In this document: positions 24,622-64,000 of the stretch, one piece after another | Layout: each line of letters begins with the position of its first letter | Position numbering within the stretch: position 1 is the first letter of the stretch | The notes under the pieces: generated by a model | Databases searched by the model: none | What the model saw: only the letters and a program-made list of their open reading frames with translations | Told to the model about the DNA's origin: nothing | Made by a program: the position numbers and the translations under genes | NCBI GenBank assembly: GCA_040954595.2 | Contig: CM082577.2 | Span: 3,181,703 to 3,245,702 of the forward strand | Direction: 5' to 3' | Length of the DNA: 64,000 nt | Origin: Balanoglossus misakiensis | Lineage: Eukaryota > Animalia > Hemichordata

Positions 24622-25809
24622 ATTTTGTTTATTTTGTCAATAACAACAAAATATTTTTTATTATATCAGTCAATAACAAAAACAAAAAGCAAACATACAT
24701 ACACACTACAGACAAGAGGAAGAGCTCCCTGTGATCACAGGTGCAGATAATTACAAAGTGATTGTTACTACCATCCACTAATCAGAGTACTCTCATTTTG
24801 ACTCGTACCTAATTACTGTTGCCTATTTCTGTTCAAACCAATCGCTCTGATTTATAAACATGCGGGTTTGCAAGTCTCGTATGTCAAACAAGTTTTAAAA
24901 CAAGCTGGTAATTCACCCCAGAAATAGAACCCGGAATATCAGTTTAAGCCGGGATCTCCTCTGAGCCGTTGACCTATTCCACTAGAAGCTTTGGCGGCGA
25001 TCCCACATCGCAGATCCCATTCGAAAGGTATACGCGAAATTGGCGTATACAGTACACTGCAGGTCCGATCTCGAATCTGGACACTTGGGAACCACCCACA
25101 GAATAAGGAGGTAACAATACACGTTGTCTGCGTTTAAAATTCAAAACCTCGGTGTTTTGCATGATAGCGTCGTCTGGGTTTTAACATATCATACGCATAG
25201 TAGCTATGCAGCTCTTATTTTGTGTTGCAATTGGAACTTGGAGGGTATTGATTTTTGGCCTATGTTGGGGAAAGCCGCGTACGATTTTTAGCGCAGTGGA
25301 GACTGAAAAAAAGTGCTCCGACGCCCCTCTGATAATTTTATTATGTAGCACATTTTGTGAGATTTCCTAGCACCAGCTTCTCCCGCTACAGGATTCTACT
25401 ATGGAGATTTAGCTAGTATTGAAATCAAAGATTAGTTGTGTACTTCAAACACGCGCTCATCTATCAGACTATTGTCGTCTACGCCCTTTTACTTTCTTTG
25501 TTGAGTCTTGCATTGCACCATGTTGGAAAACAAGCGAAATTGCGGATCTCTTATGTGTAGGTGGCTATCTGCCCACCACTATATAGGTTATATGTCAGAA
25601 TCATGAAAGAAATATTGCATTTTGACGCCGTTTTTTTACAATGTCTTTCTTGCCATTTAAAGTGGTGGTTTAGCCATTAGATAGTAAATGAACCATAATC
25701 AGAAGATGAAAGAACGTGAAAATATGTTTAATGGTAAACGATTAAACACTTTATCGTTAGTTTTTGCAGTAAATAGTGTCCGCCCTACACGTCAAGCGCC
25801 CAGTACAGT

Positions 25810-28172
25810 ATGGCCGATCTGGATAACGCAAAACAGATCGCTTGTGAAACCATCGATAAGGCAGCAGCTGACCTGAACGCTTTAAGCCAAGAAATATGGA
25901 AAAACCCAGAGCTGTATTATGAAGAACACCACGCCCATCAAGTTCTGACTGACTTTTTAGAGAATCGTGGTTTCGACGTCGAGAGGAAGTTTGTTTTGGA
26001 CACCGCCTTCAGAGCTACGTTTGGTTCTCAAGAGAAGGGCGGCGTCAACGCGTGTGTGATCTGTGAATACGATGCCTTGCCTGAGATTGGACACGCGTGC
26101 GGACACAACCTGATCGCAGAGGCCGGAGCTGGTGCTGGATTGGGAATCAAGGCGGCTCTGGAAGCAGCTGGAAAACCACTGGGAAAGGTAAATTATCCCG
26201 TCGTTTACTTCAAAGTTGTCTGAATCCACCCGGCTTTACTGCTTGTACTATGTGTTCACGCTTATAATTTCTCTCCGTCGCAGTCTAACGAGTATTTGGT
26301 TATTTACAGTTGACGGTGCTGGGCACACCAGCCGAGGAGGCAGGTGGCGGAAAAGTGAACTTGATCGACGCTGGTGTATTTCAGAACATTGACCTTGCCA
26401 TGATGGTTCATCCAGCGAATAAATTAACCGTTTCCGCTCCTCCATTTGCGGCAAAAATACAGTAAGTGTGTTTAAAAAAATGATCATCCGGTATTACACA
26501 CTTTGACGTGTTAGTAACTGTCTCATACGGGCACATTTACCAGCACGCCCCCCCCCCCCCATTCTAAGAACGTACTAAAAATGAAAACTTATATATGGCA
26601 TGCTATTATTTGACTATTTTAATAGTAAAGATTAAAAGAAATAACTTCTCTAATATATTTCCATTTGACTGTGTTACAGCCTCGACGTCACATTCTATGG
26701 TAAGGCATCCCACGCAGCCTATGCACCCTGGGAAGGCGTCAACGCCCTGGATGCTGCGGTCATGTTCTACCAGAGCGTGTCAGTGATGAGACAACAGATG
26801 AAACCAAAATGGAGAATTCAGGGTAATGAATGACTTAGAGCCCCAATAGCTGCCACTTTCAGCTTTAATTCGATAAAATACTGCAGTGTTATCCTTAGCT
26901 GACAGACGACCCCATGTGCCCCCTCCCATTTTCTCTACGACCGCCCGCCATCTCCTGTCCCATCCCAGGGTACTATTTTGATATCCTTGCTTATAGGGAT
27001 CATATCTAATGGAGGAGCCAAAGCAAACGTTATACCGGAGAAGAGTGTTGTCAACTTCTCGCTTTTAACACCAACGCAAGCTGAACTATCAGAGTTGAAA
27101 GAAAGGGCACTGGCCTGTGCTGAAGGTGCAGCCAAAGCCACCGGGTGCAAGGTATTTTATTCAGTAATAAAACACCATCGGGTTACGGTATTCCACGAAA
27201 TTTTGGCCAATTCACGACATAAACGCACGCACGAGAGATTGATTAAACTGGTCATGAGCGACTGGTATACAAACATTGTATGCGGTCGTGGTTTATTTGC
27301 TATTATATTACTCCATTACAGTATAAATTCAAGTTTTGCATAGCTTCCAACCATGGTATATATCATGGACGCAGCACTTATTTCCGCGCCTCGGCCAATC
27401 GGATCGCTCAATTAGCACCGTCAATATGCACGCGTACTGGTAAAACCTTTCTTTAAATCTCAACATTGATTATTGGCATCTTAAAACAATTTGCACACAG
27501 ATGGAATACAGCTACAACACGTATTACGCCGACATCATCAGCAACAAGTCGCTAGTCAGTCTTTTCGTGGGAAATGCTGAAAAAATTGGTGTACAATTCA
27601 CACCTGAAGCTGAAGTGGACAGGTTGCAATTGAGCGCGTCATCTGACATGGGCAATGTGACCCACCACGTACCCGGCATCCATCCCACGTATGGCCTGGA
27701 AACGGATTCTTTCAATCACTCCCAGGGTTTTACAGTAGCGGCAGGTATGTGACGTTTATATTTATTGTTGTGCTTTATATTTTAAATCGGAGAAGCAACA
27801 TGGTGTGCATATATTGCCGTATGTCTCAAGGTGTGTAAGTTCTTGGTATCAATTTGTGAAAGCCAATATCATGCCTTCTTGAGAAAAATAATGCCACAGC
27901 TTAATTTATTTTCATGCAATTAGCTTTGACATATAAGTCAAGAGTGGCTCCTAATTATAACATTGAGTGTGTGCCTTTTGTTATTCACACATACAATTGC
28001 ACCTTATTCACTGTATGCATGTCTAGGTGCGCCGGAGGCTCAGAATCCGACCTTGACTCAAGCCAAGGCCATGGCTATGACGGTTCTTGATGTCTTCTTC
28101 AGAGGTGATGACGTGATGAAACAGATCCGTGAAGACTTTGAAGAGGACATGCGCAAGAGTGGAAACAAGTGA
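25810..28172 (+). CDS. PM20D2: Peptidase M20 domain-containing protein 2-like, copy B (head-to-head with copy A)
   Basis: Six exons (25810-26187, ~26310-26461, ~26680-26822, ~26997-27151, 27501-~27744, ~28028-28172) with the same motifs ([30 protein letters not shown]). Confidence 0.92.
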
Positions 28173-42436: not shown

Positions 42437-45227
42437 ATGGCTGCCAATGACACACGAGTCGTCAAAGTGCTTGTTTTAGGGGACAGTGGGTAAGTGCGAT
42501 AACCCTACCAAATATAGCAGTTTTGTTATACGATCCTCACACACACCGCATTGACTCGTCACGTCCATATATATTTTAATATCATGGTATCCGCGTTTGC
42601 AAGCTAGTATATCGCATTTAGAACGGAGCCTCACTGCACTGGTGTTATATTTACGCACGTATATAGTACTATTGATAATATCAGTACGGTTATCTGTGCG
42701 CAAAATATGAAGGATATACCACAGTATATCCAGATACACTACAGTATATGTTGCCATGGTAATTGGAAAGCCCCGTGTTTTAATTCTGTATCCGATAGGG
42801 CCTCAGATACACATACTGTAAAATGCATTGACCGTACATATGTGTACGCCGGGTCACGCAGCGAACATGCGAAACGTTCCATATGTAGCGTACGATGTCA
42901 AGTCCTTCGACACGACAGCTTGAATATCAGGCGTTGTACAAGGTCGCCACAACTGCAATATGTTGTTTACAGTCATTTAGGCATTTTACGGTGCCATAAC
43001 CAATATTTTTTTATCAGCATATCATCGTTTTGGTCATCAAATATTACAATTACATAACCCATGAACCATTGCATATCTCGAATGGTGACTATTATTACGC
43101 CTCCCAATATGCCCTATTCAAATTTAAATACGCCTGACCTCTGAAATATAAAGACTTAGTGCCTTTACGGATATTCACAGTGCAGGCCTATATGTCAGAC
43201 GAGCGCCACACATAAGAGGATTGTGTGATATCGGCGGCCATGGCATTTCAAGAATTGAGCCGATTTGCATGAGATAACCTTTTGATGCTGTAACTGGTCA
43301 TTATCATACCAGTACTGGTACATGTATGTGATTAAACAATCAGTTGATTGATTGCCATACACACCCACCATTTCGATGAAGGGACATGGACAACGAGAGG
43401 TTCAGTGTGAAAGCCAATATTTTGAGGTTCCGCGCCGCCATTCAAGTTGGCATACGGCGGTCTCAATATAGAGGTAAAATCACAATGCAGCACCACAGGG
43501 AACGGAGCAAACTGACTGATCTGGGTGTATGTTGTTGTTGTTGTTGTTGTCTCATATCTGATCGATCCGAGCTGAACCCACCAAATAGACCAAATAGCTT
43601 TCATTCCCACACAAGAACCACACACATTTTTCAGTCGTCCACGTTCCTTTAAGTCTAAATTCTCTTTTTTCTGGTTTTGCGAATATAGGGTTGGAAAGTC
43701 TTCGCTTGTAGATCGCTACTGCCACGATAAGTTCAAAGACCACTACACACCGACCATAGGAGCCGACTTTGCTGTCAAAGAAGTTAAAGTGGGCGATCAA
43801 ACTGTTACTATGAAAGTAAGTAAAATTTTTAATAAAAGCGCCTAATAATGAAAAGTACGTTGTTTGCACGTTGAAAAATACTGACCACAGCCCGCAACCA
43901 GTGTACATGTTACATCTTGGACTCTTAAAATAACCAAATAATCGCACGTAGGAAAATCTGATGGTATGTGGTTTTACTTAATATGAGCTGAAAAAATTAT
44001 AGTTTGAATAAGATCGTAAACATTGTGGCTGCTGATATGATTATGTTAACATAGTGTACAGGTAGGTAGGCGGTCAGAAGGACAATTGGTATACATGTAT
44101 AGTATTTACACAACATATATTAATTGTGTGCCTAACTGAAATATGGCCGATCGACCCCGCAAATACTGGAAGTTGCTTCAATACACAGGCACAAGTGTGT
44201 CGGATAGTCTAGCCAGCGAAATTGGCCATTTACCCAACTGATTTCTGGACCACCCAGTGCACTTGTGTGGACGGCATCCTGGAAAAGCGGTGACAAAATC
44301 ACTCGAGACTTGTGATAATGCCTCTCTTTGTTCGACCGTAGATTTGGGACACGGCAGGACAGGAGCGTTACAGCAGTCTGGGCATCACCTACTATCGGGG
44401 AACACACTGCTGTGTCCTGGTCTTCGACGTGACGGTGCCGGAATCGTTCCGAGCACTGGACAAGTGGAAAGACGAGTTTGCGCTGCACGCCGACCCGACC
44501 GTCGCAGCGCGCCACACCTGCGTTGTCCTTGGCAACAAGGTGGACGTTGAACTTGAAGAGAGGAAGGTAATAAGGGAAAGTGATATTTTGATTGTAGTTC
44601 CATTGCCGTCTGAAAAAGTTGATTGCCATGGGTTTAAAGAACCACCAGCCTGGAAACCCAGGAGGAATAATTACAATAATGTTCTGCAAAAGACGTGTCT
44701 CTAGGGCGAAATATGAACGCTTGAGTGATTATTATTTTTTTTTACCAAAGGACTTTGCTTGAATAACAAGTAACCGACATGAGGAAAAATTACAATAATT
44801 CTGGCGTTACAATAATCCCATTTTAAAATGTATATTAGTTAAACAAGGCAAAGGCTTGAGTTATATCGATCGCGTTATATGATTTGTCCCTATAACATTA
44901 ATAACAAATTATCGAATGGCATGAAAAGCGCGATGATTTGACCACTTTTTGTCGCACTATTAATGCCATGTCTCTTTTTTTCTGCTATTGGCATTTTGAC
45001 TACAGGTGGCCACAGACGAGGCGAGGAAATGGTGTCTTGCAAACGGCGACATCCCTTACTTTGAGACGAGCGCAAAGGACAATACGAACATAGACCAAGT
45101 GTTCCAATTCATTGCCATGAACGCTGTTTTGCACGTCACGGATGAACCGGACATTCGGTCGGTCTCGGTGCAGCTGGTCGACCCGAACCTCAGAAAGAAG
45201 CGCCAGAAAAACTCCGACTGCTGCTAG
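42437..45227 (+). CDS. Rab7-like small GTPase, paralog 1 (most divergent)
   Basis: Exons 42437-42489, 43689-43815, 44342-44566, 45006-45227; [37 protein letters not shown]-terminal CC prenylation motif. Confidence 0.9.
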
Positions 45228-47053
45228 CGAATGAATAAATTATTTAGGTGTCAAAAATATTTGATATCCTGTATTTATACCAGTATTACTTCGGACTGAA
45301 GCGTATGACATACGGGTCAAGTTACATGCGCACAAATCCATCCGCATGTCTTGTTGCTATATCAGCGCCACAGCGCAGCACTGAGATGCAGACAGCGGAC
45401 GCAGCGATGGCCGGCCGTCACCCCGTATGAACACGTCGCTCGACATCAACATGGAAGATATTTTACGCGATGTGGTAGTAATGTGATACCAGGCCTAATG
45501 TGATATAATGAGGAATCTGCTTGATACCCGGCTCTGCGACGATGTGTTACAGTTGAATGCCAAGTCTGAGATCATCAACCGTACATCCGTGCTGAAATAT
45601 ATCGCTGTGGAAAAACAATCCGCTGAATATGTATTACATGTCTTTCTATGCAATATGAACCTTGCACTACAATTTTGTTTTCGCCAAACAATTAACAAGG
45701 ATAATTGCATCAAGATAACTAGGGGTGATGTCGGGTCGAGGATGGATATGGCACCTGGTTTTATGCATAGAGTGGTTCATCCTGTTGCTGTTCATCTAAC
45801 TTTTTCCAAAGCGTTCATTTTTATCGTCCAGTCCCAAGATTCAATATCAAAGCAGGTAACGGCAACGATTATTGTGACTAAAAGTTCTGATCAGTTTTTT
45901 TTTAAATGCATCGTGGTATGACCGGCAAAATTCCTCCGCTCCTTACTGTGGTACTGCTGACCGGTGATAGAATCATTTCTCTGAACGAAACAGTCGATTC
46001 GGCAAATGATTTACAGTTTCCCGTATTTGTCACCAAACATCTCATTATTTTGACATCTTTTTTTAAGATGACTACAAACGGGCAATTTCCAGTCGCAATA
46101 ATCGTGACATGTACACAATTTACTTCAATGAATGAATTAAATGAATTGAATAAAAATTAGTTTATTTTCAAAGTGAACAACGGGTCACAGTCGTGATTTC
46201 CAAGCAAGCAAACAAGCCATCAAACAAGCAAACAAACAAACACAAGTCGTCGACAATTCCAACATAATTAATGCGTCGACCTTTATCTGAGTCATTAAAA
46301 TCCTATTAAATGGCGCTTTGAAAATTTCTCAGTTATGTAAATTCTGGGTTACTGAGCTACATTGCTTCTTACTGGCACATGGTCCAAACTTCTGTATTCT
46401 ATACAGTCCCACAGTACAAGAAAGTTTAGTTTTACACGTATATGAAAGTTTATAGGTCTAAAGACACTCGACTCTATGGGGCTTCGTCGCGGTATGTGTG
46501 ATCACGGTCGTTGTGTGATATGCAACTTGAGGACCTATTTTAGTATTTTTATGCGATACATCTATTGGCCATGCTTCAGCTTGTTCTGATGACGTTGTGA
46601 ACTTTAACAGATCGGGGGAAATGGGAAACAATTGGCCGTTCACAAAAACGGAACAAATCCCCTTCTATAGTGGTGCGCACCTGATTTGCATGTATTTCAA
46701 TGGCGTCTGTCCCTACAATGCGGACTACTAATATGCATGCAATTGTTTCTATGTCCACGGCCAGTGCATGTATACACACGGGTGTGCACAACCATAGACA
46801 TGTAGATGGGTATAACACACATACAATCACTTGAATGAAATGACGTAGCATAAATAAATAGGTCAGCGCGTCAGTGCATGCGTAGTAAGTGTTTAGATAA
46901 GACGCATTGGTTCGGTAACCTATTTTATACGGCGCTGCGAAGCCATGCCAATAGACGCAGGGAACGTCAGAACTTGTCGGCTAGTGATAGTGTGATAGGT
47001 CACATCACCTATGCCCTCCGGGAGAAAGAGTCACTGGTGCCGGTATATACAAG

Positions 47054-49225
47054 ATGGCGACACGTAAGAGGCGACTGGTAAAAGTCATTTTACTCGGAGA
47101 CAGCGGGTAAGTGTGTAAATAAGTTGACGGTACGAGAACCAACATGTACGTTTGCTTCGATATGACGTCACTGGACCCGTTGTACTTTAGTCGGGTCAGG
47201 CAGGAGAGGGCTAAAAGTCGAGACACGGGGTAGAAGTTTGAATGGAGAAATATTTAGACATCTAAGACAGTACAGAAATGCACTGACATAGGTCGTCGTC
47301 GTACGTTCTTACATATAACGGCCAGCCGTTTTCAGCATGAGTTTTGCAGTTTGATTTTGTGTAAAGTATACCGGTACACATATTAAAACGGAAGTCTTCA
47401 GTGTTTAGGTCCATACCATGGTCCATGGTACTATAGTATGTACCTCTACTGGTGCCCCCGGTTATATTGTAGGAAACCCTTCTTGTAGTGTAGCGAAGAG
47501 ATGTTTGAACACCATGATCTGGAGACCCAGATAATATAAGTCATCTCAAATATGACCATAACCGTGACCTTGACTACAGCGCCATGTAGGGACCGTGGTT
47601 CTACCTGGCGTGTTTCACAAGCCCAGCCGGTGTTCTGCGACCTGCACTGTAGTGTGGGTCGCAGAACACCGGCAACAACACACAACCATGACACGCACAG
47701 TTTTTCATTGCTGTCTCAACTTGTGTCCCGGGAAACCGTCTGCTAATCTTGCGCCTTTCATCACCGTGTCTGCGGATTCGGGTTTCCCGGGGAAAAACCT
47801 CGAGGTACACGATACTCGACTAAATTTTAAACCAAACCGTGGACAAAGGTTTGCATGTAACCCACTTCTATGTCAATTCTTATTCGACAGGGTCGGCAAA
47901 TCTTCACTCGTGGACCAATATGTGCACCATAAATTCACCGATAGGTACAAAGCGACCATTGGAGTTGACTTCACTACAAGAGAAGTTCTTGTCGGCGACG
48001 ACGTTATGACACTGCAGGTAAAACCGATCAGCGGTAAATTGATCTCGGTCACCTTGAAGTAAGCAACCTTGGAAGCTGGAGAATACCGCTTTGATTTACA
48101 ACTAAAGGAAGTTTGGTCTTAACATTCGCCGCTTTTGAATATATCTACTGCCTACACTTTGAAGAAAGCACAATTTGGAACGCTATAAATAGCCGCAGCA
48201 ATAGAAAACAATGGTCGCCTTTGTGGGGACATAGTTGGTCTCTGTGAACAGAGACAGTGAACTGCCTGTTCACAGTCGATTGTCGAACACAGGCTGTAGA
48301 ATTTCAGAAATTTGCCACCGCCTGAGTTCGAACGTAATCACATTTCGTTGGAAATGCCATCTGGTTGTTCAGGCCTGCATATCACAATACGGATGAAATC
48401 TTTTCGCACGTTAATCTATGAATATGTGATATTATAAACGATTTGCTTAAGGCTACGATACGAATATTAATATTTTTCTCCCATCGCCATGTGCTTTTTC
48501 AGATCTGGGACACGGCCGGACAAGAACGCTTCAAAAGTCTAGGCATCTCGTTCTACAGAGGAACCAACGCATGCGTGCTCGTGTTCGACGTCTCGTCTTA
48601 CAGAACTTTTCATTCACTGAACACGTGGAGGGACGATTTCCTCATCCACGGCAGTCTGGCAATAGAGAACGAGGGCGGGTCGCCGTTTTTCGTCATCGGC
48701 AACAAAACCGACTTGAGAGAAAGAGAAGTAAGTGTGTAGAACACCACGAAGCTTTGTCGTCACTGCTTATATGGTTACCGTGGTTTCTTTCTACGGACGT
48801 GATCAGATCGATATACAAGTCACTCTCAACGGCTGCGAATCAAACTCCTTTACCACTGGCTCCGATGTTGTGCTATCGAATTGGGTCTGACATGCAGTGG
48901 CCATTTTGCTTAGACATTGCGAATGTATTATTATACATTTTCACTGAGAGTCTTGGTAAAGTTTTTTTTTTGTTCTTGACAGGTTTCAAGGGATATGGTC
49001 GAATCGTGGGTTAGGAGCAAGAGGGAAGACATGCCTTATTACGAGACAAGCGCCAAGAACAGCACAAATGTCCAGCAGGTCTTTGAGGCAATCGCCACGA
49101 ACGCTTGCAATGCGATGAGAGCGAACCTCAAGGAAGACGGTGCAGATCCCTCGAAGATCAAACCAGTTTCGAACGACGTGGCAGTTGTAAAACAATACGA
49201 GTCAAACTCGAAGTGCAACTGTTGA
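47054..49225 (+). CDS. Rab7-like small GTPase, paralog 2
   Basis: Exons 47054-47106, 47891-48017, 48503-48727, 48983-49225; [37 protein letters not shown]-terminal CNC. Confidence 0.92.
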
Positions 49226-50399
49226 CCACAAGCACGCGCAGTACGTTTGCGCCAACTTAATAGATCTTTTGAACACTGTCGACCTTTTGAGTGGGATGAT
49301 GACGGCTACCGTCTGCGTGACCGCGGGACTTCCCCCACCCAACCTTGATTGAGGAGTATTTGATGTAACAGTGCCACCGTGGGTAATAATTATGTGAAAT
49401 TCACCTCAAGTGTATCTTCTAATCTGGTTTTAAGATCTTAAATGTATATGTTAAAGACTTCCTGCAGCTGTCGACGATATGGAACTTTTAGAGTTTTGAC
49501 CTGAACTTTTTTTTATTAACGAAACTAATTATTTAAAAAATATGACACTGTTCAGTGTTAGCAATGAAGGTACATTTACTGCATCGCTACACAGTTTGTA
49601 CATAAGACAAGTGATGTACCCTGTCAATAGAATATTTCATCATTAAAAGAATAAACGTTAATATTACATGAATTAGAATAGTTGTAAAAACTTGTACAAT
49701 TGACGTTTGTTCGTTCAAACCACAGTTAAATTCCCCCGGATTCTTTAAGCGGGTCAGTCTCGGTGGGGGCGCTAAACTTCGTCCGGAAAAAGGGTCTGGG
49801 GACAGGCACAGTACCACCTGGAAAGTATCTCCAAGATGGCATAGTTATACAGAACAAACTGCGGTTTCATTAGTCGGTGAATTGACATTTTCGAACATAG
49901 ATTACACAATAAGTAAGACAAGTAATATAGTCTGAGGACTAAACTCACAAACTCGGGGACTCAAAGAAAAAGAACACTGACTCAGTGAATATATTAATAT
50001 GACATGGAAGGCTGCCATACAGCGCCCCCAATCGATGCCAACCCAGAATTATGAATGCGCCCTTTGTTCACCTGAAGGTGACCCTGTGTGACCTTAAAGG
50101 ACAATGATCCCTTGTATTGGGGACGTTTGTTTAAGATTTTATTAGACTTGAAATAATCGGTAGTTGCAGCAAGCGCATTTAGTGAATACAGCCACAGTGA
50201 AAAGAACAGAAGACACTTCGGGGTTTGAAAGACACCATTTTTTGTAACCATGAGAGACTGAGTGACCCTGGGCGCCTTAATCGCTGTGACCTCAACGGGG
50301 ATTTACGGTGACGTTGGACTCCCATGCCCGGCTGTCATAGACAAAAGATACATCGTAGGTCATGTGATGACAACATTCAGCGTGTTGGGCGAAGCCCGT

Positions 50400-50411
50400 G
50401 ATGACGTCATC
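50400..50411. promoter_or_regulatory. Palindromic CRE/ATF site GATGACGTCATC upstream of Rab7-like paralog 3
   Basis: Exact TGACGTCA core in a 12-bp palindrome ~220 bp before the ATG. Confidence 0.4.
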
Positions 50412-50627
50412 GCACGAGCGGGTGCTTTCCTTGGATCGAGCGACATTTCTTCAACGTGCGCCAGCTTACACCCACCTCAATCTCAGCTCAGCTTGGATTA
50501 TTAAGCTTAAATAGGAGTGCTTGCAAATTACCTATAACCCTTTTTACGGCGTCTGAACCAACTCCGCTTCCAAGCACGTCTACTGATCTTCGCGGATTCG
50601 ACGAAAATCTCCCCCGTGACCCTCGAG

Positions 50628-52494
50628 ATGTCCTCGAGCAGACGTTCGCTTATAAAGGTCGTCATACTGGGAGATAGCGGGTAAGTCTCTGTCTAAACGA
50701 AACGCCGCATGGTAGATCTTGTTTTAGTAAATGCCGTGTTCCGGACAAAAAAATCAAAATCTTGATTTCAGACAGTGTCAGACTGGCAGGCAGGGAGACA
50801 GACAAACAGATAGGCAAACAGGCAGACAACTAAAATAACATTCACCTTGATTTATGTGCAATTTTCATGGTTTGCGTTTATAGGCCCTATACAACAAATA
50901 GCCCAAAAGAGTGTGGAAGAAAAACTGGCCGATTCCACATTTCTGTCATAAAGTATCCGTGACTCACCGCGTGTACCTTATGTCTCATGCAAGTTAGTCT
51001 TCATTCAACAAACGGCCATCTGGAGAGAATGCAATACAATCACCCCCCCCCCTGCTTTCAGTTTCATACTCGAATTGCCCATATCTCTGCGGAAACAGCA
51101 TCCATATATCATATGTCTTGTTTATGTGTTTCTTTGAACGCCCTCTAGCGTCGGAAAGACTTCACTACTCAACCAATACGTCAACAAGAAATTCAGCAAC
51201 CAGTACAAGGCGACCATAGGAGCAGACTTTTTGTCAAAAGAAACGGTCGTCGATGACAGGCTTGTTACCATGACGGTAAGGCGAGACTAGCCCCTTCTTC
51301 TGATGCCAAATGCCAACGAATAAGCCTTTGGGAATAATATTGGTCTATGTATGATGTTAGTTATAGACAATACACGTGACGGTTCACGTTACTTTGGTTG
51401 TAAATGATTTACTATATGGCTGCAAATAACATGGACATGACTTCATGGTATGGAAGAGTAACCATGGAAACCCCTACAGGGCCTACACATTACAGAATAG
51501 GGGCACGGTGGGCTGAAGGTCAAAACAGACGAACGAAGGATATACAAATATACATGGGTAACATGACCATGTGAAAGGTCGAATAAGGAAAGGGGGAGAG
51601 GGGGGAGGGAGGGAGAGAGTCAGAGAGTTGATAAGTGATAACTTTCAATTTGCACAAAAATACGCACCGACTGAAAGATATATCACTACGGAGCGCCAAG
51701 GAGAGTGGACCTTTTATACAGAGCAACAGATTAATTCCAATTTGATGTATTGGCCCCAGCATGCGATACAGGTATCCTCTAGGTAGACATCAATTATTCT
51801 GCACATGTGTCTCATTCATTCTTGCTTCCCCTCAGATTTGGGACACGGCGGGCCAGGAGAGGTTTCAGAGCCTGGGCGTCGCGTTCTACCGAGGCGCCGA
51901 GTGCTGCGTACTTGTGTTCGACGTCACGTCGCCGATTTCGTTCAAGTCGCTGGACAGCTGGAGAGACGAGTTCCTCATTCAGGCGAACGTGCGAGATGCC
52001 GAGAACTTTCCGTTCGTTGTCATCGGTAACAAAGTAGACCTGAACACGAGATCAGTAAGTTCCGGTCAGTCCACGTGTCCGAAAAATTTCTTTGTTCGTG
52101 CTTGGGCAGACCACTGGCAAATCGTGGCTGTAGTATTGAAACACGAACACGAGAATTTTACCTATAGCTACCTACCTACCTATCTATACCTGCTAGCCAA
52201 CAACCCAATAAAATTGTCAGCTTTAGACGTTTAAACCTCAGAAATTGAAAACGACTGTTACAATTTTTGTTTTAGATCTCGACGCGGAGAGCTGAAGCCT
52301 GGTGTCGCAGCAAACGCAACATACCTTACTTTGAGACCAGCGCCAGGGAGTGTCTGAACATTGACGTTGCTTTCCAAACCGTCGCCAAGAACGCCCTCAA
52401 GAAGGAACTCGAGTCGGAAATTGTCCACGACCTGCCGCCAGAAATAAGGCTGGACGATAGGGAGAAACATTCGAAGCCGGGTTGCAAATGCTGA
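50628..52494 (+). CDS. RAB7: Rab7-like small GTPase, paralog 3 (closest to canonical Rab7a)
   Basis: Exons 50628-50680, 51149-51275, 51836-52054, 52276-52494; [61 protein letters not shown]-terminal CKC. Confidence 0.9.
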
Positions 52495-54242: not shown

Positions 54243-55070
54243 CTAATCTTGAGTTTCTGCCACCGTAGTCGCCTGTTCTTCCATGGTTTCGTCGCCGCCT
54301 TCCCCCTCCTCATCCTCGTCGCTCTTCCCGCAGTCTCCATGGTGACAGCAAGATGGCGGTGGGTACGGGTGCCAGGACGGCATCGGGGGAGGGTGGGGAA
54401 AACCGCCGAAGCCGTACCCTCCCATCATCATGGACGGGTGGTGGTGCAGCATCATCAGCATCATCATGTAGTGGTGCCACGGGTCGAGCCCGTAGCCGCC
54501 GAAGCCGTGCCCGAATCCGTGATGATGTGGGCCGCCGAACCAGGAGCCGCGTTGCGCGGGGGCTCCCCAACCGCTGTACGGACAACCGTGGTGTGGATCG
54601 GCGAATGCCGCGTGATGCGGGTCGCCCGGACACGTGGACTGATGATGGCCGTGGTGCGGATCTCCCCACATACCGCTCAGGAACGGGCAGCCGTGGACGG
54701 GGTCGGCGGTGTGATTCGCATCGTCGGAGGAGTGATGCGGATCTTCGCTATGCCCAGAGTGGGGTGCATCTTCGTGGGAACCGCTACTAGGCTGATGATG
54801 ATGATGATGATGATCACGAGGGGCGTCTTGGCAATGGTGATGGGGATCTCCCTTACCGTGCCGTCCAGTAGCCGTTTGGTGTCGCGGGGGATAACAATAA
54901 AACGGGCACCGACCACGCGAAGACGTTGCGAAGGGTGGTTGGCATCGGCCTGCTCCCCTTCCCAAGCGTCCTCGGCGCGAAATTCGGCCGCCTGCACAGG
55001 GACACTTCGCAGTGCACTTGCCGGTCGCGGCTGGAGACGTCTCTTCCGTAGATGCCGTGTTTGTCGCCAT
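54243..55070 (-). CDS. Intronless His/Gly/Pro/Cys-rich protein of unknown function (275 aa)
   Basis: GC-rich ORF in AT-rich surroundings, ATG in aaATGG context, TATA box (TATAAAAA on minus, ~55214-55221), repeated DPHH/EDxPH units, Cys-Pro motifs, acidic C-terminus. Confidence 0.75.
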   Translation of the reverse strand: MATNTASTEETSPAATGKCTAKCPCAGGRISRRGRLGRGAGRCQPPFATSSRGRCPFYCYPPRHQTATGRHGKGDPHHHCQDAPRDHHHHHHQPSSGSHEDAPHSGHSEDPHHSSDDANHTADPVHGCPFLSGMWGDPHHGHHQSTCPGDPHHAAFADPHHGCPYSGWGAPAQRGSWFGGPHHHGFGHGFGGYGLDPWHHYMMMLMMLHHHPSMMMGGYGFGGFPHPPPMPSWHPYPPPSCCHHGDCGKSDEDEEGEGGDETMEEQATTVAETQD

Positions 55071-55213
55071 TTCAGATCTTGTCTAATTTTCACCTCGGCC
55101 TATCTTCTTGTAGGAACCTCCAATTTTTAAAGCGGCTTTTCGTACTTCTTCTTCGAAGTATGTCGATTCTGTCGTGTCGCAACCTGACTGTGGCTGCCCA
55201 GGCACGACTCGCT

Positions 55214-56584: not shown

Positions 56585-56699
56585 CTGGCCCTGCGTACAG
56601 GTCTGTGTGCTCCCGGTGTTACACGGCCTCCACCAGTAGATATTGATGTGGTGGAGGCCATGTAACGCCGGGAGAACGCAGACATGTACGCAGGGCTAG
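56585..56699. mobile_element. 115-bp palindromic insertion (51-bp arms) flanked by a 7-bp direct repeat ATGTGGG
   Basis: Arms 56585-56635 and 56649-56699 are reverse complements with 6 differences; ATGTGGG at 56578-56584 and 56700-56706. Confidence 0.8.
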
Positions 56700-56724
56700 A
56701 TGTGGGATTTGTTTACAACAAGCG

Positions 56725-57555
56725 CTGCATGCAAGCCAACGCCGACATTACCAGTACTTGCTGTGAAAGTCTTTGTTATGATGACGTCAAAAGCTATATT
56801 TAATCAGGGGGCTTCCCAAACTTGAAGTCCAGGTCAATGCTAGAAAAAAGTTGCGTGTTGCTAAAACAGACGATGACTTATTTGTTGACCGAACATTATG
56901 AAACCAAAAGGTGAATAAAAGGGCCGGTCCCTACAACTTGTCTACGTGCAGATGTAACGTCGTCATTAGGACCTTGCATTTTCACGGGAGGGAGACAGAA
57001 AAGACCATGGACACCTCTGTTGCGTTGTCAAATAATCTCTATTGGTACCGTGGTGTGGATTTTGTTTTATCACAACGAACATTTGCACACGCGATGCCAG
57101 GTGCTGATGCAAGCCAACGCCGACATTACTAGTCCATGTTATGATGACGCCATGGGTTATATCTAAACATGGGGCTTCCCAAAGTCCGAGTCAATATTAA
57201 GCCTGGTCGAATGCCAAAAGAGTTGCGCGCTAAACCAGACAATGACTTTATTTGTTGACCGGACAAAATGAAACCGATAGGCGAATTTCATCATACGAGG
57301 TGTATAAGAGGGCCGGTCCCTACAAAGCCTACAAGTCAGTTCTACACGCTTGTCTACGTGCAGATGTAACGTCGTCATTGGACTGTCATGTCGCTGTCGG
57401 AGAACAGTTTTTGTTCATGAACTTTATAAGCATTGCAGTTGATTGACTTTATTTGCTGTTTAAGACTAAAATACCCGTCGTGTTGTACCAGATTTGGGAC
57501 CTTGCATTGTTAACGGAAGTGAGTAAGAAAAGACCTACCATGGACACCTCTTGTG
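56725..57555 (+). repeat. Diverged tandem duplication of a promoter + start-codon cassette
   Basis: ~56725-57020 aligns with ~57105-57555 (gcaagccaacgccgacattac...ggggcttcccaaa...tatttgttgacc...gggccggtccctacaa...cttgtctacgtgcagatgtaacgtcgtcatt...accATGGACACCTCT). Confidence 0.85.
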
Positions 57556-58076
57556 AAACAGGCAACTCATCAACTGGTGCAGTCGGCGTGGAGGCTGCGG
57601 GAGCGACTACCTCCATGCCCATACCTAGTCCAGAGACAAACTCGATCGGCGGAAACGTGCTCAATACTGCTAGTGGCGACACAACTAGCAACCGCGCGGC
57701 GGGCACTGGCAAGAATCGATGGTCGCTGCGTTTGCGGCGCAACTCCAGCGGACAACTGCCGGAGGACCCTACGCAGTCGTCAGGATGCGGAGACGGGGAC
57801 ACGAACAACAACACCAAAGCTGCAAAATGCCCGACGAGCGCACCGGTATGTCACTACGGGTTACCCTACTTTGATAATCGCGGGACTGCTGACGGCAGCA
57901 CATCGAATAACCAGCGCCCGCACGAGTTATACGAGAGGCGTCCTTTCAACCACCGACACCTTCATTACCCAATGGACTGTCACGTGTACTACCGCCTGTA
58001 CTTCAGTCGCTGTGGCGCTCTGAACAAGCCGTCTTGGCCCACCGACACTGACATGATGGTCGGAGGGTGGGACTGA
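57540..58076 (+). CDS. Intronless orphan protein (178 aa; Ser/Thr/Gly-rich N-half, His/Tyr/Cys-rich C-terminus)
   Basis: accATGG Kozak context at 57540, GC-rich ORF, AT-rich 3' flank, upstream TATA-like gtataag (~57302); no recognisable domain. Confidence 0.55.
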   Translation: MDTSCETGNSSTGAVGVEAAGATTSMPIPSPETNSIGGNVLNTASGDTTSNRAAGTGKNRWSLRLRRNSSGQLPEDPTQSSGCGDGDTNNNTKAAKCPTSAPVCHYGLPYFDNRGTADGSTSNNQRPHELYERRPFNHRHLHYPMDCHVYYRLYFSRCGALNKPSWPTDTDMMVGGWD

Positions 58077-60014
58077 AATGATCGAATGGAATCGCCCAAA
58101 AACGCTCAGCAGGGTAAATATGATTGATGGGCATCAATGTCGCGAAGAGGAAATTAAACTCTCAAAATTTAGCAGAAACTACTGACATTTTGACAAACAA
58201 TTTATCAGAGCGTTCTGGTAACATGACAAATGTCGGACAGAGCAAATGACTTTGAACCCTAAGTATAAAGTCCTGATAGTTTAACAGGCCTAGCAGTCTT
58301 ATGTTCATTTACCAAGCCTCATGATGTAGATACTTGTATCCCTTTCTTTGACCATGTTGCGTTGAGAATTTTAATGATTAATTGTACATATTTTCTGTAA
58401 TCTGTTTAAGTCGTGTTGTACATAAATTGTATTCCGTTTTGTTTCAAGTCTATACGTGTTAGAAAGAAAATATTAAACGTGTGACCCACCAAGTATCCGT
58501 GTGATATGGCCGTGTATTGATTATTGAACTACTTATAGCCATATTCCTGAGAATGTGTTCCCTTGGTAAAATCTGTCAAGTTCTCTTATGATGATGCTGT
58601 GTTCTTGTCCGCCTACTTTCAATGTCAAAGTCTGTGACGAGAGTTCGACCTTGAACTCGCCCGCTGCCAGCATACCGCGCGTCACAATTCATCAAGAAAA
58701 AACTAATAAGTCCCGAGAGAAATTCGACACCCGTTCGACAATCAGATATTAAACTGGAAATTAAAATGGAGTCATAATTGACATCCTTGATGGAAAAGGC
58801 GACGTATTAATCAACAGAGTGGCACTTGATATTGGTCCAACACTGTTTCTGATACGATAAAATAATGACAGCTGATTTGACAGATGAACGCTACAATTGG
58901 TTGGCATAGTAAATGCTGGCCTGTCAGTCCATGACACTCAAGAACCTTCTCGCGACCACGTGACCTGGTCATCGCCGTCTCTTCCAAGACTGTCTCCCCG
59001 GTCTTTGACTTCAACTTTAAGGATATCGACCTACCGTTCTTCCCGTCTGGCCGAGTCGCCCAATCCTGTCACCATGGCATCACGTGTTTCTGTTGTTGCG
59101 TCCTTTGATAAATATTGAATCGTGCAAATAACACAAAAACTTGTAAACAAAGTTATCTCGTCTCTGTCATCGTGGGCTTGTTACGAAAACTATCGAAGGC
59201 TTCTTCCCCCCTCTCCCTCCCATTACCCCTCTCACAGACAGGCGACTCAAGATCCCCTCTCACTTATCGCACTATAGGTGGGCCTGAATTACATGTATCA
59301 TTCTTTCCATGGCATCTTTCAGTTCAGTGTCCCCGACAATCCTCGGCCGATTGTTAAAGCATCACTACTCTTTGAAAAGAAAATGCGGTCGTTAACCATT
59401 TATACACTTCAAAGAAACCACTCGTAGAATTGCGAGAAATACACCGGTCTATACCAACACATTAGTTTCTGATTCTGAAGGATCGCATGATGTTTACGAA
59501 AAGGTCAACCGAGCATGACGAATGTAGCCGTACCGCCGTGACCCCGCCGTGTTTACGCCATTTTTACCCCCATTTTAGGGACACTCAATAATACAATATG
59601 CCGGAGAACATGGGGCGTGTTGGGCGAGAGAACGTCCACGGCATAACTCAGCGTCAGACCGGACCACGTGTCCTCGTTTCAACTTTACCGGGTTAATTAC
59701 CACGACCATCTATTTCTGTGTAATGGATTGCACCGGATAGGGGGTTAATGGTGTGCTGAAATCCCACACCCATCCAGCAGATTCCCAACGTATATATATA
59801 TACCGAGGATATTTGTGCCCCTAGTCTAAACAAGCCTAAGGACGTCTCTGCAGTCAGGACCGGGAGCGGACTTGAGCAAGGCTATCTAGCGAAGACTAGT
59901 GGCGATTCCTGTCATTGTCCGACAAGTAAACGTCGTCATCTAGGGAAGAACTTCACGCCATCTTCACTTTCAACTTCTCTGTCGGGTTCTTGATAGCACG
60001 CAGTTGGAGCCAAG

Positions 60015-62914
60015 ATGAATTTGACCCAAGTTTTCCTCGTTTGCTTGATGGCCGTAACTGTCTCACTGGCAAAGAGGGGTAAGTTAGGATAAAACTATTT
60101 TCAAAAGCCCCAGGAAAGCCTAGTGTTCAATGTATACCTTTATTCTTGTCACATTATCATGTAAAATGCCTTTACCATACTATAACCAATCCCCGTGGCA
60201 ACACCACAACCCAAAACTGCATCCTCATCATCGCTATCGCCAAAATGGTATTCATCATCACCCGCATCTTTATGTAACACAGCCGTTACAATTTCATGAC
60301 GTCTTGACAGCCGTAGCCACAAAAGTCTATCCCCTCGCTACATGGATTCAATTTGCAAACCAATTTGACTCTATATCGTCACGGTTGTCTTTTGGTACGC
60401 GTAGCGTATTTATCATCATCAACAAGACGTTGTACTTGTATGTATAAGTTTTGTGCAAAGGATCGGATCAACTTCTATGTGTAGTGTCTATATATCAACG
60501 GAGTTTACCCAGACGACAGTTATGGAGTCCAACTGCCGACACTCGAGGATTTGCGGCCCCGCCAACATTCCGTCGCGTGCGCGTGAGCTACAGACCACAG
60601 ATACGTGTCGACATACTCACTTATTGTTCTTCATCAGATCATGCTCGACGCTGGGCAGGGTATGTGCAGAGAGATCCCCCGGAGCCAAATCTTGAAGTAT
60701 TCCGACAGTAATTACGTAAACACTGTTGCTTCTTATCAAGGGTCTGTCCCCATCCGGTGGAAACGCAACATCAACTCAACGTTGACAGAAATACGCAATT
60801 ATATTTCGACTGTGGCCATCTCAAGTTGCTTCATTTCGATATTTAGTAATTTTGTTTTGCATCGATTCGCTTTGCTCTGTTTTATCTTCCGAATGCATGG
60901 TACGGAACTGCTAATGGAAATGCTATAATTGCATATTTTTACAACTGCGAATTGAAACCGCTTTACTAATGTATCCGTACGACGGATAAGCCATATACAG
61001 TTAATCCGGGCTCGATATTTCCATCCTGCTGAGGTCCAAAATAGACTTTGTTATATAAACTGACGTGCACTTTAGGCCAGTTTTCTCTTATCCATGCAAC
61101 TTTCCGGGAGTGACGACCGTATTTCGTTTAAATTAAGTGGCAAATCCAAGTGACAGAAAAGCCCCTTCGAGCAAAACAACTGTGTCTCTGACGTCTTGTG
61201 ACGTGCGCGTCAGTGTGTGAATGAATACAAGTTCAAGGATTTACAGATGAAATAGCTCCACATAATCTCCGCGGGCATGGGTAGCAGCTAGCTCCCACTG
61301 TCTGCGGCAAGATTGACAACAAAGTCATGAACGTTGCATTTCAGTTATGAATTTTCTTTACCGTCTCAATCAGCACGGCTTCTAAGCGTCACGTGAGGGT
61401 TACCCAACTCGCTTAGCACAAACAGAAGAAAAAATACCAAGTGACGAGAAAAGCTGGAAAACAAAACCGTAGATTATTGCTTTCCGTTTATTTTAAATGC
61501 AGTGAGCCACGACACACCCCCATTTACGCGCCACTTTACCTTGAGTGGACAAAAGGGTCGAGATTGTACGGGGGAGCGCTCGGCTATTGGTACTAGATCG
61601 CACTGCTGCGACGTTTTGATCTTTTAACAATAACAAGAAAACTGTGACGATGGACAAATTCCGTATGTGCTTAACATTGTTTGAAGGGTCCTGGTAATGT
61701 ACATTCCGAACAACGTGTGTAAGATTAGTGTGTTTGGCAAGGATACGGCCAATGAATCCTAGCGTGTTTCACCAGTACTTGTGAAACACGCAACGTCCAA
61801 TCTGTTGCCGTTGTCGATTTTCTCCGTATCAATCACTCACTCTCACTCACTCATGCAATCAGTCAGTCAGTCAGTCAGTCAGTCAGTCAATCGATCGATC
61901 GATCACAATTTCTTCTTTTTGTCAAGTGGCTAATAATGAGTAAGTTGATTTGTTAGTTTGTTAGTTAGTTTAGTTAGTTAAAATGTTATTTAGTTACTAG
62001 TATTAGTTTTTTTTGCTGGCTGGCCAGTTGATGTTAGTACATGTAGTTAATTAGTACGTTCAAGAAAACCTATCTAGCTATCAAGCTAATCGTCATCAAT
62101 CAATAAATTCATGAAGCGTACCTACCCTAATCCAGACGATTACGACATATTTCTTATTTCGACCATAGATCCAAAGATAACGTGCGTCTGCGACCCACCA
62201 TGTAATCGAAAGGATTCCTGCAAGACACGGGGAGCCTGCTACACCAGTTATACGATGAACGGAAACGATGTCATGGTCATCAGAGGATGCGTCAAGTCGA
62301 AGAAAGTAACTGGCATTTGCAACGGTCCAGGGATGATGGTAAGTTTGTGCCTGGAACAGTTTTAACGATTCCGCGATGTTTATGTCGACAGTTCTTTTAT
62401 AGTCAAACGCAGACATTAAGCGCTTGAGAAACGTTTATGTAGGTCAAAGAACGCCTCAACATCCATTTGTTTCCCTCTTAAATTGACAAGCGTTTAATTA
62501 TTTCGGCAAACCTTTGTGGGAAACAGTATAAACGTTATCGAATGACACTGCCAACGCACTCGTAGACGTCACGAGAATTAAAATTACCTTCTCTCGACCA
62601 AAGCATGCGTTTGTTGTTTCTTTCCTCAGGACATCAGCTGCTGCTTTGACAGTATGTGCAACCAGACCCCGTCGGACGAGGACAGCTACTCATACTCCCA
62701 ATACGACAACGCGTACGGCGGCGACGACGCCAACATCGGCGGTGGCGACAAAGGTGACGCCAACGTCGGCGTCAACGATGGCGGTAACGGTGATGGCAAC
62801 GCTGGCGGTGGCGGTGGCGGTGACGGTGGCACCCACACCCGTGGACGTAGAAGTAGTAGTAGCAGCAGCAGCAGCAGTAGTAGCAGCAGTAGCTCCTCGT
62901 CAGAAGAAAAATGA
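60015..62914 (+). CDS. Small secreted protein: activin/TGF-beta type-I-receptor (BAMBI-like) three-finger ectodomain + acidic Gly-rich linker + RGRR + poly-Ser tail
   Basis: Exons 60015-60078 (signal peptide MNLTQVFLVCLMAVTVSLA), 62169-62338 and 62630-62914, phase-compatible; 10 Cys in the pattern CVCDPPC...C...GACY...RGC...IC...SCCFDSMCN; no hydrophobic transmembrane segment before the TGA. Confidence 0.8.
61830..61905. repeat. (CACT)n/(CAGT)n/(GATC)n microsatellite
   Basis: Consecutive tetranucleotide runs. Confidence 0.85.
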
Positions 62915-64000
62915 AATACTGAGTCGAAGAGGTAGCAGAGATGACGGAAAGAATCAGAAATTGAGACATTTATATTAACCTAGAACCAATCTCTGCGGTG
63001 TATACCCTCATCGAAATATAGCAAGGATCGACCCCTGACCACGAGAGCATAGGCCTACCTTGAGATCTAACTTAGACTAGACTTCGCCCGGTCATGAAGT
63101 TAATAGTCATGGATATATATTTCTTATATAATCTGTATATACAGAAGTCATATAAACAGTAAATATTCTTGGGATGCGAGATTTGTGCTTATTACTTCGT
63201 TTCACACGGTCTGACCTATCTTATATTTTCTTCCGACATGAAATTTTTTAACCGACTCTTATACTTCAGGTTTAATACTCCCGGATTAACCCCAACGCCT
63301 CAATATGTTGTTTTAAGATCATAAGCATCACGACACGTGGCACGTTAAAATTGTAACAACATCAATCAGGATCATCTCCGGGCTTATTTACAACAATTGC
63401 TAACAACCGATAATGGAAGTTGGCGCACTTGATCTCTTCATTACATTAATTGAGCATTTCCTGAATGTATAGTTTGGTCAATTAGACATCTTTATCTGCA
63501 TTAAACGTGTCACTGCATGTATTCATAGTGCGATGGCGAAAATAGTTCAAGGAGAAAATTGAAATTGTAGTCATGCTTATCCTGTTCGTCAGTGTGAAAC
63601 TCTAAAAGAAGGACAAACAGACAGACAGAAAGACAGACAGAATTATATTTATTCCTACCCTCTTCTTTACTGAAGGTGTACTTACAGTATTCTGGAATTA
63701 ATACCATCGAGATTAACTACCATTGACAAAAAACAATGGTCACTCAAAATTCCTAACTTTCGAAATGTAATTCTGTCAAAGTGTTAACATGTCCATTTCC
63801 TCTATTTCACATTTTCCTGTACCCTTTCCCCGAAATCATTATGTTTCTCTCGCGAGCCTGAGGCACTTGCAATGATGTAATTTGAATAGGGAGTGACGCC
63901 CCCACGTTTACCTGCAAGGCATGCAGTGAGTGACCAGCTGGACATTCACTAACTCGGACTATTTGTTCGTGTGGCAGCGCTAAGTAAGGTAGTATTATAG

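What the first reader, a model, noticed from the sequence alone, without database searches (positions are those of the whole stretch)
60015..62914. Soluble TGF-beta type-I-receptor/BAMBI-like ectodomain fused to a cleavable poly-serine tail
Seen: signal peptide, a 10-Cys domain with type-I-receptor spacing (CxC...GACY...RGC...CCxxxxCN), a D/G/N-rich linker, RGRR, then 16 Ser + EEK and a stop. There is no transmembrane, GPI-type hydrophobic tail or kinase. Established: BAMBI is a membrane pseudoreceptor, and S-x-E/poly-Ser tracts in secreted proteins are Fam20C substrates typical of Ca/mineral-binding phosphoproteins. Inference: a secreted BMP/activin decoy tethered to matrix or mineral through a phospho-Ser tail and releasable by furin. 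The ORF track splits it into unrelated pieces.
Basis: partly seen in the sequence, partly recalled or inferred. Interest (0 to 1): 0.7.

Follow-up and report, generated by a model that had tools for sequence, protein, structure and literature searches.

The report
Acorn-worm secreted BMP-receptor ectodomain family
This three-exon gene encodes a small protein resembling the outer part of a BMP receptor, with a signal peptide and an acidic, serine-rich tail but no membrane anchor or kinase; six similar proteins occur in three acorn-worm species, and the family likely binds BMP-type growth factors outside the cell, although no binding has been tested.

Summary
The gene model holds. Three GT-AG exons give 172 aa: signal-peptide-like start, 10-Cys domain, Gly/Asp/Asn linker, RGRR, 17 (not 16) Ser, EEK, stop, no transmembrane segment. 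All three exons map in order onto a 122-aa Ptychodera flava protein (78% domain identity) that also ends without an anchor. A profile search found five more such proteins in Glandiceps and Saccoglossus, so this is an acorn-worm family. The family profile ranks BMP type-I receptor ectodomains first (BMPR1A E=1e-6) and snake three-finger toxins far lower (E about 6). No member matches Pfam BAMBI or UPAR_LY6. Acidic tails are general (7 of 7). The poly-Ser run and the furin-like site before it occur only in this protein (1 of 7), so the furin-release idea is weak. The BMPR1A hot spot Phe85/Gln86 is absent in all seven; ALK1 also lacks Phe85 and still binds BMP9. Best reading: a secreted, receptor-derived modulator of BMP-type ligands with a probably phosphorylated tail (about 45%). 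Main rival: a repurposed scaffold that binds no ligand (about 35%). Expression and binding were not tested.

The parts
60015..60078 (+). Exon 1 coding part: signal-peptide-like residues 1-21, ending in KR; phase-1 donor GTAAGT
   Evidence: (14 of 21 identical to the P. flava N-terminus); in-frame stop just upstream
60079..62168 (+). Intron 1 (2090 nt, GT-AG)
62169..62338 (+). Exon 2: Cys1-Cys7 of the type-I-receptor-like domain, including the 9-residue Cys6-Cys7 loop; phase-0 donor GTAAGT
   Evidence: (79% identity to P0001)
62339..62629 (+). Intron 2 (291 nt, GT-AG)
62630..62662 (+). Exon 3 start: CCxxxxCN box (Cys8-Cys10); N89 begins an N-x-T sequon
62663..62839 (+). Acidic Asp/Gly/Asn/Tyr-rich low-complexity linker with one S-x-E; much longer than the P. 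flava tail
62840..62851 (+). RGRR, furin-like RxxR site; only in this member at this position
62852..62914 (+). 17 Ser + EEK + TGA stop; two S-x-E sites at the end of the run
59791..59802 (+). TATA-like (TA)6 upstream of the ATG; role not tested
   Evidence: seen
63500..63505 (+). ATTAAA, the only AATAAA/ATTAAA hexamer downstream of the stop within the window; possible poly(A) signal, not tested

Best explanation
The locus is a three-exon gene for a predicted secreted 172-aa protein made of a BMP type-I-receptor-like ectodomain and an acidic Ser-rich tail, without membrane anchor or kinase; it belongs to a family found here only in acorn worms and likely modulates BMP-type ligands outside the cell. 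Shown: gene structure, lack of anchor, family membership, sequence grouping with type-I receptors, acidic tails. Inferred: (1) the family arose by duplication of the ectodomain exons of a BMP-class type-I receptor; (2) the domain binds the type-I (wrist) site of a TGF-beta-family ligand, in an ALK1-like way without the Phe knob and probably with modest affinity, and so buffers or redistributes the ligand rather than signalling; (3) Fam20C phosphorylates the tail, making a polyanion that holds the protein on cations, basic matrix or mucus and limits its range. The long poly-Ser run and RGRR are additions in this lineage, not the core mechanism.
For: Three exons collinear with P. flava XP_070580388.1. 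That cluster has one member, and the search of 99-2000-aa proteins with exon 2 returned only it (1 of 1 candidate; the tool calls such blanks weak evidence). Profile search of 1.84 billion representatives: 8 hits at E<=1e-3, of which 6 are anchor-less acorn-worm proteins (one is the query), 1 is a gastropod type-I receptor kinase with two such domains and 1 is a bacterial repeat protein, set aside as noise. In 7 of 7 (six plus the window protein) there are 10 Cys, no hydrophobic stretch after the N-terminus (max 0.72) and a net negative tail (-3 to -14). Family profile against the PDB: 23 of 26 matches are type-I receptor ectodomains, BMPR1A best (32 bits, E=1.1e-6); the 3 toxins score about 10 bits. 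Six of nine Cys spacings equal those of BMPR1A, including the 9-residue loop that carries its ligand-binding helix (read; helix role from PMC2946932 passages); that loop length holds in 7 of 7. The Atlas model's best structural match is a receptor kinase ectodomain, TM 0.59. ALK1 lacks Phe85 yet responds to BMP9 at about 2 pM (PMC3196573 passages). Fam20C phosphorylates S-x-E sites and poly-Ser stretches and is present in invertebrates (PMC7948968 passages). The Glandiceps member closest in identity has 10 S-x-E in its tail.
Against: No binding, expression or phosphorylation data. The positions matching Phe85/Gln86 are G/I here and D/I, R/V, Y/L, E/L, Q/T, N/M in the six others: neither hot-spot residue is kept and the first position is free to vary, which fits a surface not held to one ligand. 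Domain identity between members is only 37-78% and domain charge ranges from -6 to +4. With P. flava alone as query, 14 of 20 PDB matches were snake toxins, nearly tied with ALK4 (E 0.006 against 0.003). Atlas feature search: nematode Activin_recp-only proteins 0.86 and CD59-like 0.85, both leads only. S-x-E exceeds shuffled tails only in the window protein (p=0.014) and the repeat-built Glandiceps tail, not in P. flava (p=0.32) or the three others tested. Some type-I ectodomains bind ligand weakly on their own (ALK4, ALK2; PMC8718839 and PMC12415261 passages), so a monomer may be a poor decoy.
Confidence: 0.45

Rival explanations
1. The domain came from a type-I receptor but has lost ligand binding and serves as a stable secreted three-finger scaffold with another target, for example in mucus, epidermal defence or ossicle matrix.
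For: Hot-spot positions are not conserved and vary among members; paralogues are only about 40% identical and differ in charge. Three Saccoglossus members share one longest-contig length (145,669), suggesting a tandem cluster, a pattern typical of fast-evolving secreted families (own knowledge). Acorn worms have epidermal calcium carbonate ossicles (PMC9490348 passages).
Against: The Cys6-Cys7 loop keeps the BMPR1A length in 7 of 7 and ends in a hydrophobic residue in 6 of 7; ALK1 shows that Phe85 is dispensable. No direct link to ossicles or mucus was found.
Confidence: 0.35
2. One reading: a decoy tethered to mineral or matrix by the phospho-Ser tail and released by furin cleavage at RGRR.
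For: RGRR lies directly before 17 Ser + EEK; the run uses both AGY and TCN codons, which fits selection for serine; Fam20C acts on poly-Ser.
Against: RxxR at this position and the long Ser run occur in 1 of 7 members; the closest homologue has neither. Cleavage in the secretory pathway would remove the tail before it could tether anything (inference). An acidic linker stays on the domain after cleavage.
Confidence: 0.1
3. The gene is really a membrane protein or receptor: either TM/kinase exons lie beyond the window, or a one-base frameshift hides a Thr-rich stalk and hydrophobic segment that the +1 frame of exon 3 reads.
For: Only 1086 bases follow the stop in the window. The +1 frame (62631-62978) is open and gives Thr-rich, then Val/Ala-rich sequence followed by basic residues.
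Against: The +1 frame has no alignment to the P. flava protein, while frame 0 does. No strong donor lies inside exon 3 (best score 2.9 against 5.7 and 6.8 for the two used donors, with a weight table from memory). All six annotated homologues end without an anchor. No kinase exon lies in the window.
Confidence: 0.05
4. It is a Ly6/uPAR or three-finger toxin-like protein, and the receptor likeness is a matter of shared fold.
For: Single-sequence PDB search gave toxins nearly tied with ALK4; Toxin_TOLIP matched P. flava weakly (14.6 bits, cut-off 21.2); CD59-like cluster at 0.85.
Against: The family profile separates receptors (32 bits) from toxins (about 10 bits); UPAR_LY6 matched 0 of 7, Toxin_TOLIP 1 of 7, Activin_recp 5 of 7; the nearest non-family protein is a type-I receptor kinase whose two domains share the first four Cys spacings.
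Confidence: 0.05

Closest known systems
BMPR1A/ALK3 ectodomain (Activin_recp, PF01064)
   Same: 10-Cys pattern, 6 of 9 spacings, CxC start, CCxxxxCN box, 9-residue Cys6-Cys7 loop; best PDB match of the family profile.
   Different: No TM, GS box or kinase; Phe85/Gln86 replaced by Gly/Ile; shorter loops after Cys3 and Cys7; acidic Ser tail.
ALK1/ACVRL1 ectodomain
   Same: Type-I ectodomain that lacks the Phe85 knob (Glu75; PMC3196573 passages); one family member also has Glu there.
   Different: A signalling membrane receptor; only a weak profile match (E 0.14-0.21).
BAMBI pseudoreceptor
   Same: Kinase-less relative of type-I receptors with a proposed inhibitory role.
   Different: BAMBI is membrane-bound; Pfam BAMBI matched 0 of 7 members; Saccoglossus has a separately described bambi (PMC1551926 passages).
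Plakobranchus ocellatus type-I receptor kinase GFO20829.1 (two Activin_recp domains)
   Same: Nearest non-family hit (E=1e-7); first four Cys spacings identical; 28-38% domain identity.
   Different: Has TM and kinase; Cys6-Cys7 loops of 7 and 10 residues.
Nematode short Activin_recp-only proteins (Atlas cluster, 118 aa)
   Same: Similar length and Pfam label (64% of members); top feature hit at 0.86.
   Different: A lead only (under 0.9); not found by the profile search; relationship untested. It shows that Activin_recp-only proteins as such are not unprecedented.
Fam20C-substrate phosphoproteins (phosvitin, casein, SIBLING proteins)
   Same: Poly-Ser and S-x-E tracts in a predicted secreted protein.
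   Different: Compositional likeness only; no homology; phosphorylation not shown.

Membership tests
Activin_recp domain (PF01064) | Pfam score above the gathering cut-off 20.9 | tested here: inconclusive
   The window's exons scanned separately gave no match and the spliced protein was not scanned. Its 78%-identical homologue scores 27.2; of five other members one passes (24.1), three fall below (20.7, 16.3, 14.3) and one has no match.
Activin_recp domain (PF01064) | 10 Cys with CxC start and CCxxxxCN box | tested here: met
   BMPR1A and ALK4 patterns read
TGF-beta type-I receptor | TM helix, GS box and Ser/Thr kinase | tested here: not met
   In-frame stop at 62912-62914; no hydrophobic segment; no kinase match in the window
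TGF-beta type-I receptor | Phe85/Gln86 ligand hot spot of BMPR1A | tested here: not met
   Gly/Ile here; neither residue kept at its position in any of 7. ALK1 also lacks Phe85.
TGF-beta type-I receptor | Three-finger fold with a helix in the Cys6-Cys7 loop | tested here: inconclusive
   Two AlphaFold2 models of the P. flava protein had pLDDT 48.6 and 51.5 and placed a helix there; fold searches gave no significant match; the Atlas model matched receptor ectodomains at TM 0.59
TGF-beta type-I receptor | Binds a TGF-beta-family ligand | not testable with these tools
BAMBI | Pfam BAMBI/BAMBI_C match | tested here: not met
   0 of 7 rows at E<=10 (the window row was exon 2 only)
BAMBI | TM helix and short cytoplasmic tail | tested here: not met
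Ly6/uPAR and three-finger toxins | Pfam UPAR_LY6 or Toxin_TOLIP above cut-off | tested here: not met
   UPAR_LY6 0 of 7; Toxin_TOLIP 1 of 7 at 14.6 bits, cut-off 21.2
Ly6/uPAR and three-finger toxins | GPI signal (membrane Ly6 members) | tested here: not met
   Highest C-terminal 12-residue hydropathy is -0.8 here and at most 0.31 in the family
Fam20C-substrate phosphoproteins | S-x-E or poly-Ser in a secreted protein | tested here: met
   3 S-x-E and 17 Ser in the tail
Fam20C-substrate phosphoproteins | Actual phosphorylation and Ca/mineral binding | not testable with these tools
   Needs proteomics or an assay
Acorn-worm soluble ectodomain family (defined here) | Signal peptide, 10-Cys domain with spacing near 1,3,5,5,n,9,9,0,4, acidic tail, no anchor | tested here: met
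   (the seven rows separate from the two gastropod receptor domains at 98/96; no wider outgroup)

The most novel reading that the evidence does not exclude
Acorn worms have evolved a family of dedicated, naturally secreted type-I-receptor ectodomains that act as BMP/activin ligand traps, each paralogue tuned to a different ligand and held in place by a phosphorylated acidic tail: an undescribed class of extracellular BMP modulator in a key deuterostome lineage.
Probability: 0.3. Interest if true: 0.72.

Novelty: new variant of a known kind. Interest (0 to 1): 0.52.

Why it matters
Hemichordates are a reference lineage for BMP-Chordin axis evolution. The modulator lists seen in passages of PMC1551926, PMC11226491 and PMC13121700 name Chordin, Tsg, Cv2, BAMBI, Noggin, Gremlin and others, and no secreted receptor ectodomain. 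Soluble receptor ectodomains are familiar as engineered ligand traps; a gene family built that way by nature would add a class of modulator and show how a receptor domain can bind ligand without the Phe85/Gln86 hot spot. If the family binds no ligand, it still shows a receptor ectodomain turned into a free secreted scaffold. Both readings can be tested in Saccoglossus and Ptychodera, where the homologues are annotated but uncharacterised.

Tried and rejected
No whole genome is held for the window, so sequence beyond 64000 could not be read. No RNA holder was listed. Pfam on the separate exons: no relevant match. A second search with P0001 (1 hit of 2 candidates) and one with alignment A3 (4 hits of 1046 candidates) added no member. 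P0007 (Spiroplasma repeat lipoprotein) was dropped as noise from the 8 hits. AlphaFold2 models were low-confidence; Foldseek gave nothing at E<=0.001, with type-I ectodomains at ranks 1-3 (E 0.5-0.7); the VIA wide search gave best Z 4.5 on unrelated folds; neither was used as evidence. The second Atlas search did not complete. The metagenome scan gave 4 loci from 108 pattern matches; the two read (L001, L002) are short chance matches in bacterial-looking ORFs; L003 and L004 match the same query stretches and were not read. No second family member and no receptor kinase exon lie in the window. A recalled BMP-response motif occurs once in the window, 50 kb from the gene, at chance level. The +1 frame of exon 3 as a hidden TM segment was rejected. 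No complex was predicted because no ligand sequence was held. Ten paper searches listed no description of the family; the search for six of its accessions gave 0 papers. Main texts only were searched and no supplement was opened, so the genes may stand in transcriptome tables. PMC3431715 was not held. Three look-ups of earlier findings returned nothing.

Full report
Observation. The window holds a clean three-exon reading frame on the + strand: 60015-60078, 62169-62338 and 62630-62914. Both introns are GT-AG with GTAAGT donors, phases 1 and 0, and the product is 172 aa. It has a hydrophobic N-terminus, a 10-Cys domain at residues 27-88 (spacing 1,3,5,5,16,9,9,0,4), an acidic Gly/Asp/Asn linker, RGRR, 17 Ser, EEK and a stop. 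Nothing after the N-terminus is hydrophobic enough for a TM or GPI signal (highest 19-residue mean 0.66). The signal peptide is judged from hydropathy and homology only.

The gene model is backed by a homologue. Exon 2 finds one protein among the longer sequences of the 5.8-billion set: Ptychodera flava XP_070580388.1, 122 aa, 79% identical over exon 2. All three exons match it in order, its Cys positions are the same (27-88), and it ends in a 34-residue acidic Ser-rich tail with no anchor. The window is therefore likely from an acorn worm close to Ptychodera; this is inferred from one gene. I tested a hidden membrane form: the +1 frame of exon 3 reads as a Thr-rich stretch and a Val/Ala-rich segment, but it does not align to the homologue, while frame 0 does. 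Exon 3 has no strong internal donor. Sequence beyond the window could not be read.

It is a family. A two-sequence profile searched against 1.84 billion representatives gave 8 hits at E<=1e-3: the P. flava protein, two from Glandiceps talaboti (185 and 150 aa), three from Saccoglossus kowalevskii (110, 125, 163 aa), a Plakobranchus type-I receptor kinase with two such domains, and a bacterial repeat protein that I dropped as noise. All six acorn-worm proteins are annotated as uncharacterised. The three Saccoglossus ones share one longest-contig length and the two Glandiceps ones another, which suggests linkage. In 7 of 7, counting the window protein, there are 10 Cys, a hydrophobic N-terminus, no later hydrophobic stretch and a net negative tail. 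No echinoderm or chordate member appeared, but the profile was shallow and the follow-up search depends on shared words, so the range is open.

What the domain is. Activin_recp matches 5 of 7 rows, two above the cut-off; BAMBI and UPAR_LY6 match none; Toxin_TOLIP matches one, below its cut-off. With the P. flava protein alone the PDB search was ambiguous: ALK4 came first, but 14 of 20 matches were snake toxins at nearly the same score. The seven-row profile resolves this: 23 of 26 matches are type-I receptor ectodomains, led by BMPR1A (32 bits, E=1.1e-6), then ALK4, BMPR1B, ALK2, ALK5 and ALK1, with three toxins at about 10 bits. Six of nine Cys spacings equal BMPR1A's and five of nine equal ALK4's (read). 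The 9-residue loop between Cys6 and Cys7, which in BMPR1A forms the ligand-binding helix (PMC2946932, passages), has that length in all seven. My own structure models were too poor to use (pLDDT 49-52). The Atlas's model matched receptor ectodomains best (TM 0.59), with a Ly6-labelled cluster at 0.57.

Does it bind ligand? This is the open step. BMPR1A's hot spot is Phe85/Gln86. The matching positions are Gly/Ile here and Asp/Ile, Arg/Val, Tyr/Leu, Glu/Leu, Gln/Thr and Asn/Met in the others. BMPR1A-like high-affinity binding of BMP2/4 is therefore unlikely. ALK1 has Glu in place of Phe85 and still responds to BMP9 at picomolar levels (PMC3196573, passages), so binding by another geometry remains possible. 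ALK2 and ALK4 ectodomains bind weakly alone (PMC12415261 and PMC8718839, passages), which would make a monomeric decoy weak unless its tail concentrates it. No ligand sequence was held, so no complex was predicted.

The tail. Acidity is general; S-x-E is not. Counts are 3 here (p=0.014 against shuffled tails), 2 in P. flava (p=0.32), 10 in the repeat-built tail of one Glandiceps member (0 of 10,000 shuffles, but repeats are not independent), and 0-1 in the other four (the 13-residue tail of P0002 was not shuffled). The three members richest in S-x-E are also the closest in domain identity (50-78%) and have basic domains. Fam20C phosphorylates S-x-E and poly-Ser stretches and occurs in invertebrates (PMC7948968, passages), so phosphorylation is likely. 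Acorn worms make epidermal calcium carbonate ossicles (PMC9490348, passages), which keeps a mineral role possible, but nothing links this gene to them. The RxxR site before the Ser run and the long run itself occur in 1 of 7, so furin release is at most a property of this one protein.

Mechanism and odds. Most likely (0.45): a secreted, receptor-derived ectodomain that binds the type-I site of a BMP-type ligand with modest affinity and is held locally by a phosphorylated acidic tail. Rivals: a scaffold that has lost ligand binding (0.35), the full furin-released mineral tether (0.10), a hidden membrane form (0.05), a Ly6/toxin-type protein (0.05). It is not BAMBI: there is no TM and no Pfam match, and Saccoglossus bambi is a separately described gene (PMC1551926, passages). 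It is not a receptor. It works like a type-I ectodomain only if binding is shown.

Novelty. Ten searches of main texts listed no description of these proteins, and the accession search gave 0 papers; supplements were not opened. Passages of PMC4729200, PMC11175523, PMC13121700 and PMC11226491 on hemichordate genomes or BMP modulators mention no secreted receptor ectodomain. Short Activin_recp-only proteins exist in nematodes, so the architecture is not without parallel. I rate it a new variant of a known kind, interest 0.52, rising to about 0.72 if ligand trapping is shown.

Noticed in passing
window 54243-55082 (-): Open frame of 279 aa rich in His, Gly and Pro with poly-His runs and an acidic C-terminus; no Pfam match. 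Could be a metal-binding low-complexity protein.
   Followed up: partly
window 57447-58076 (+): 209-aa open frame (ATG at 57540) just upstream of the gene, no Pfam match; a roughly 250-nt stretch upstream appears duplicated (about 56680-57010 and 57100-57400, seen).
   Followed up: partly
window 44342-52234 (+): Exons of about three tandem Rab7-like small GTPase genes (Pfam Ras on two of them; the Rab7 label is recalled from the motifs).
   Followed up: partly
window 21207-23137 (-) and 25777-27343 (+): Two nearly identical, divergently oriented genes that look like M20 peptidase domain (PM20D2-like) genes; the label is recalled, and the two exons scanned gave no Pfam match at E<=0.01.
   Followed up: partly
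window 504-5559 (-) and 14648-19104 (-): Exons with Reeler and EGF domains, and exons of an AMP-binding (acyl-CoA synthetase-like) gene.
   Followed up: partly
P0005 (Glandiceps XP_077980611.1), residues about 130-136: Ser-Gly in an acidic context right after the domain, resembling a glycosaminoglycan attachment site (motif recalled); another possible way to give the tail negative charge.
   Followed up: no
P0004 (Plakobranchus GFO20829.1): Type-I receptor kinase with two tandem Activin_recp ectodomains; the nearest non-family relative.
   Followed up: partly
P0008 (Saccoglossus XP_006812301.1): The last box is CC-x5-C without the Asn and is followed by a further Cys; may be a divergent member or a gene-model error.
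   Followed up: no
window 62339-62629: From memory, human BMPR1A also has a phase-0 intron between the seventh and eighth Cys of its ectodomain; recalled, not checked by any search.
   Followed up: no
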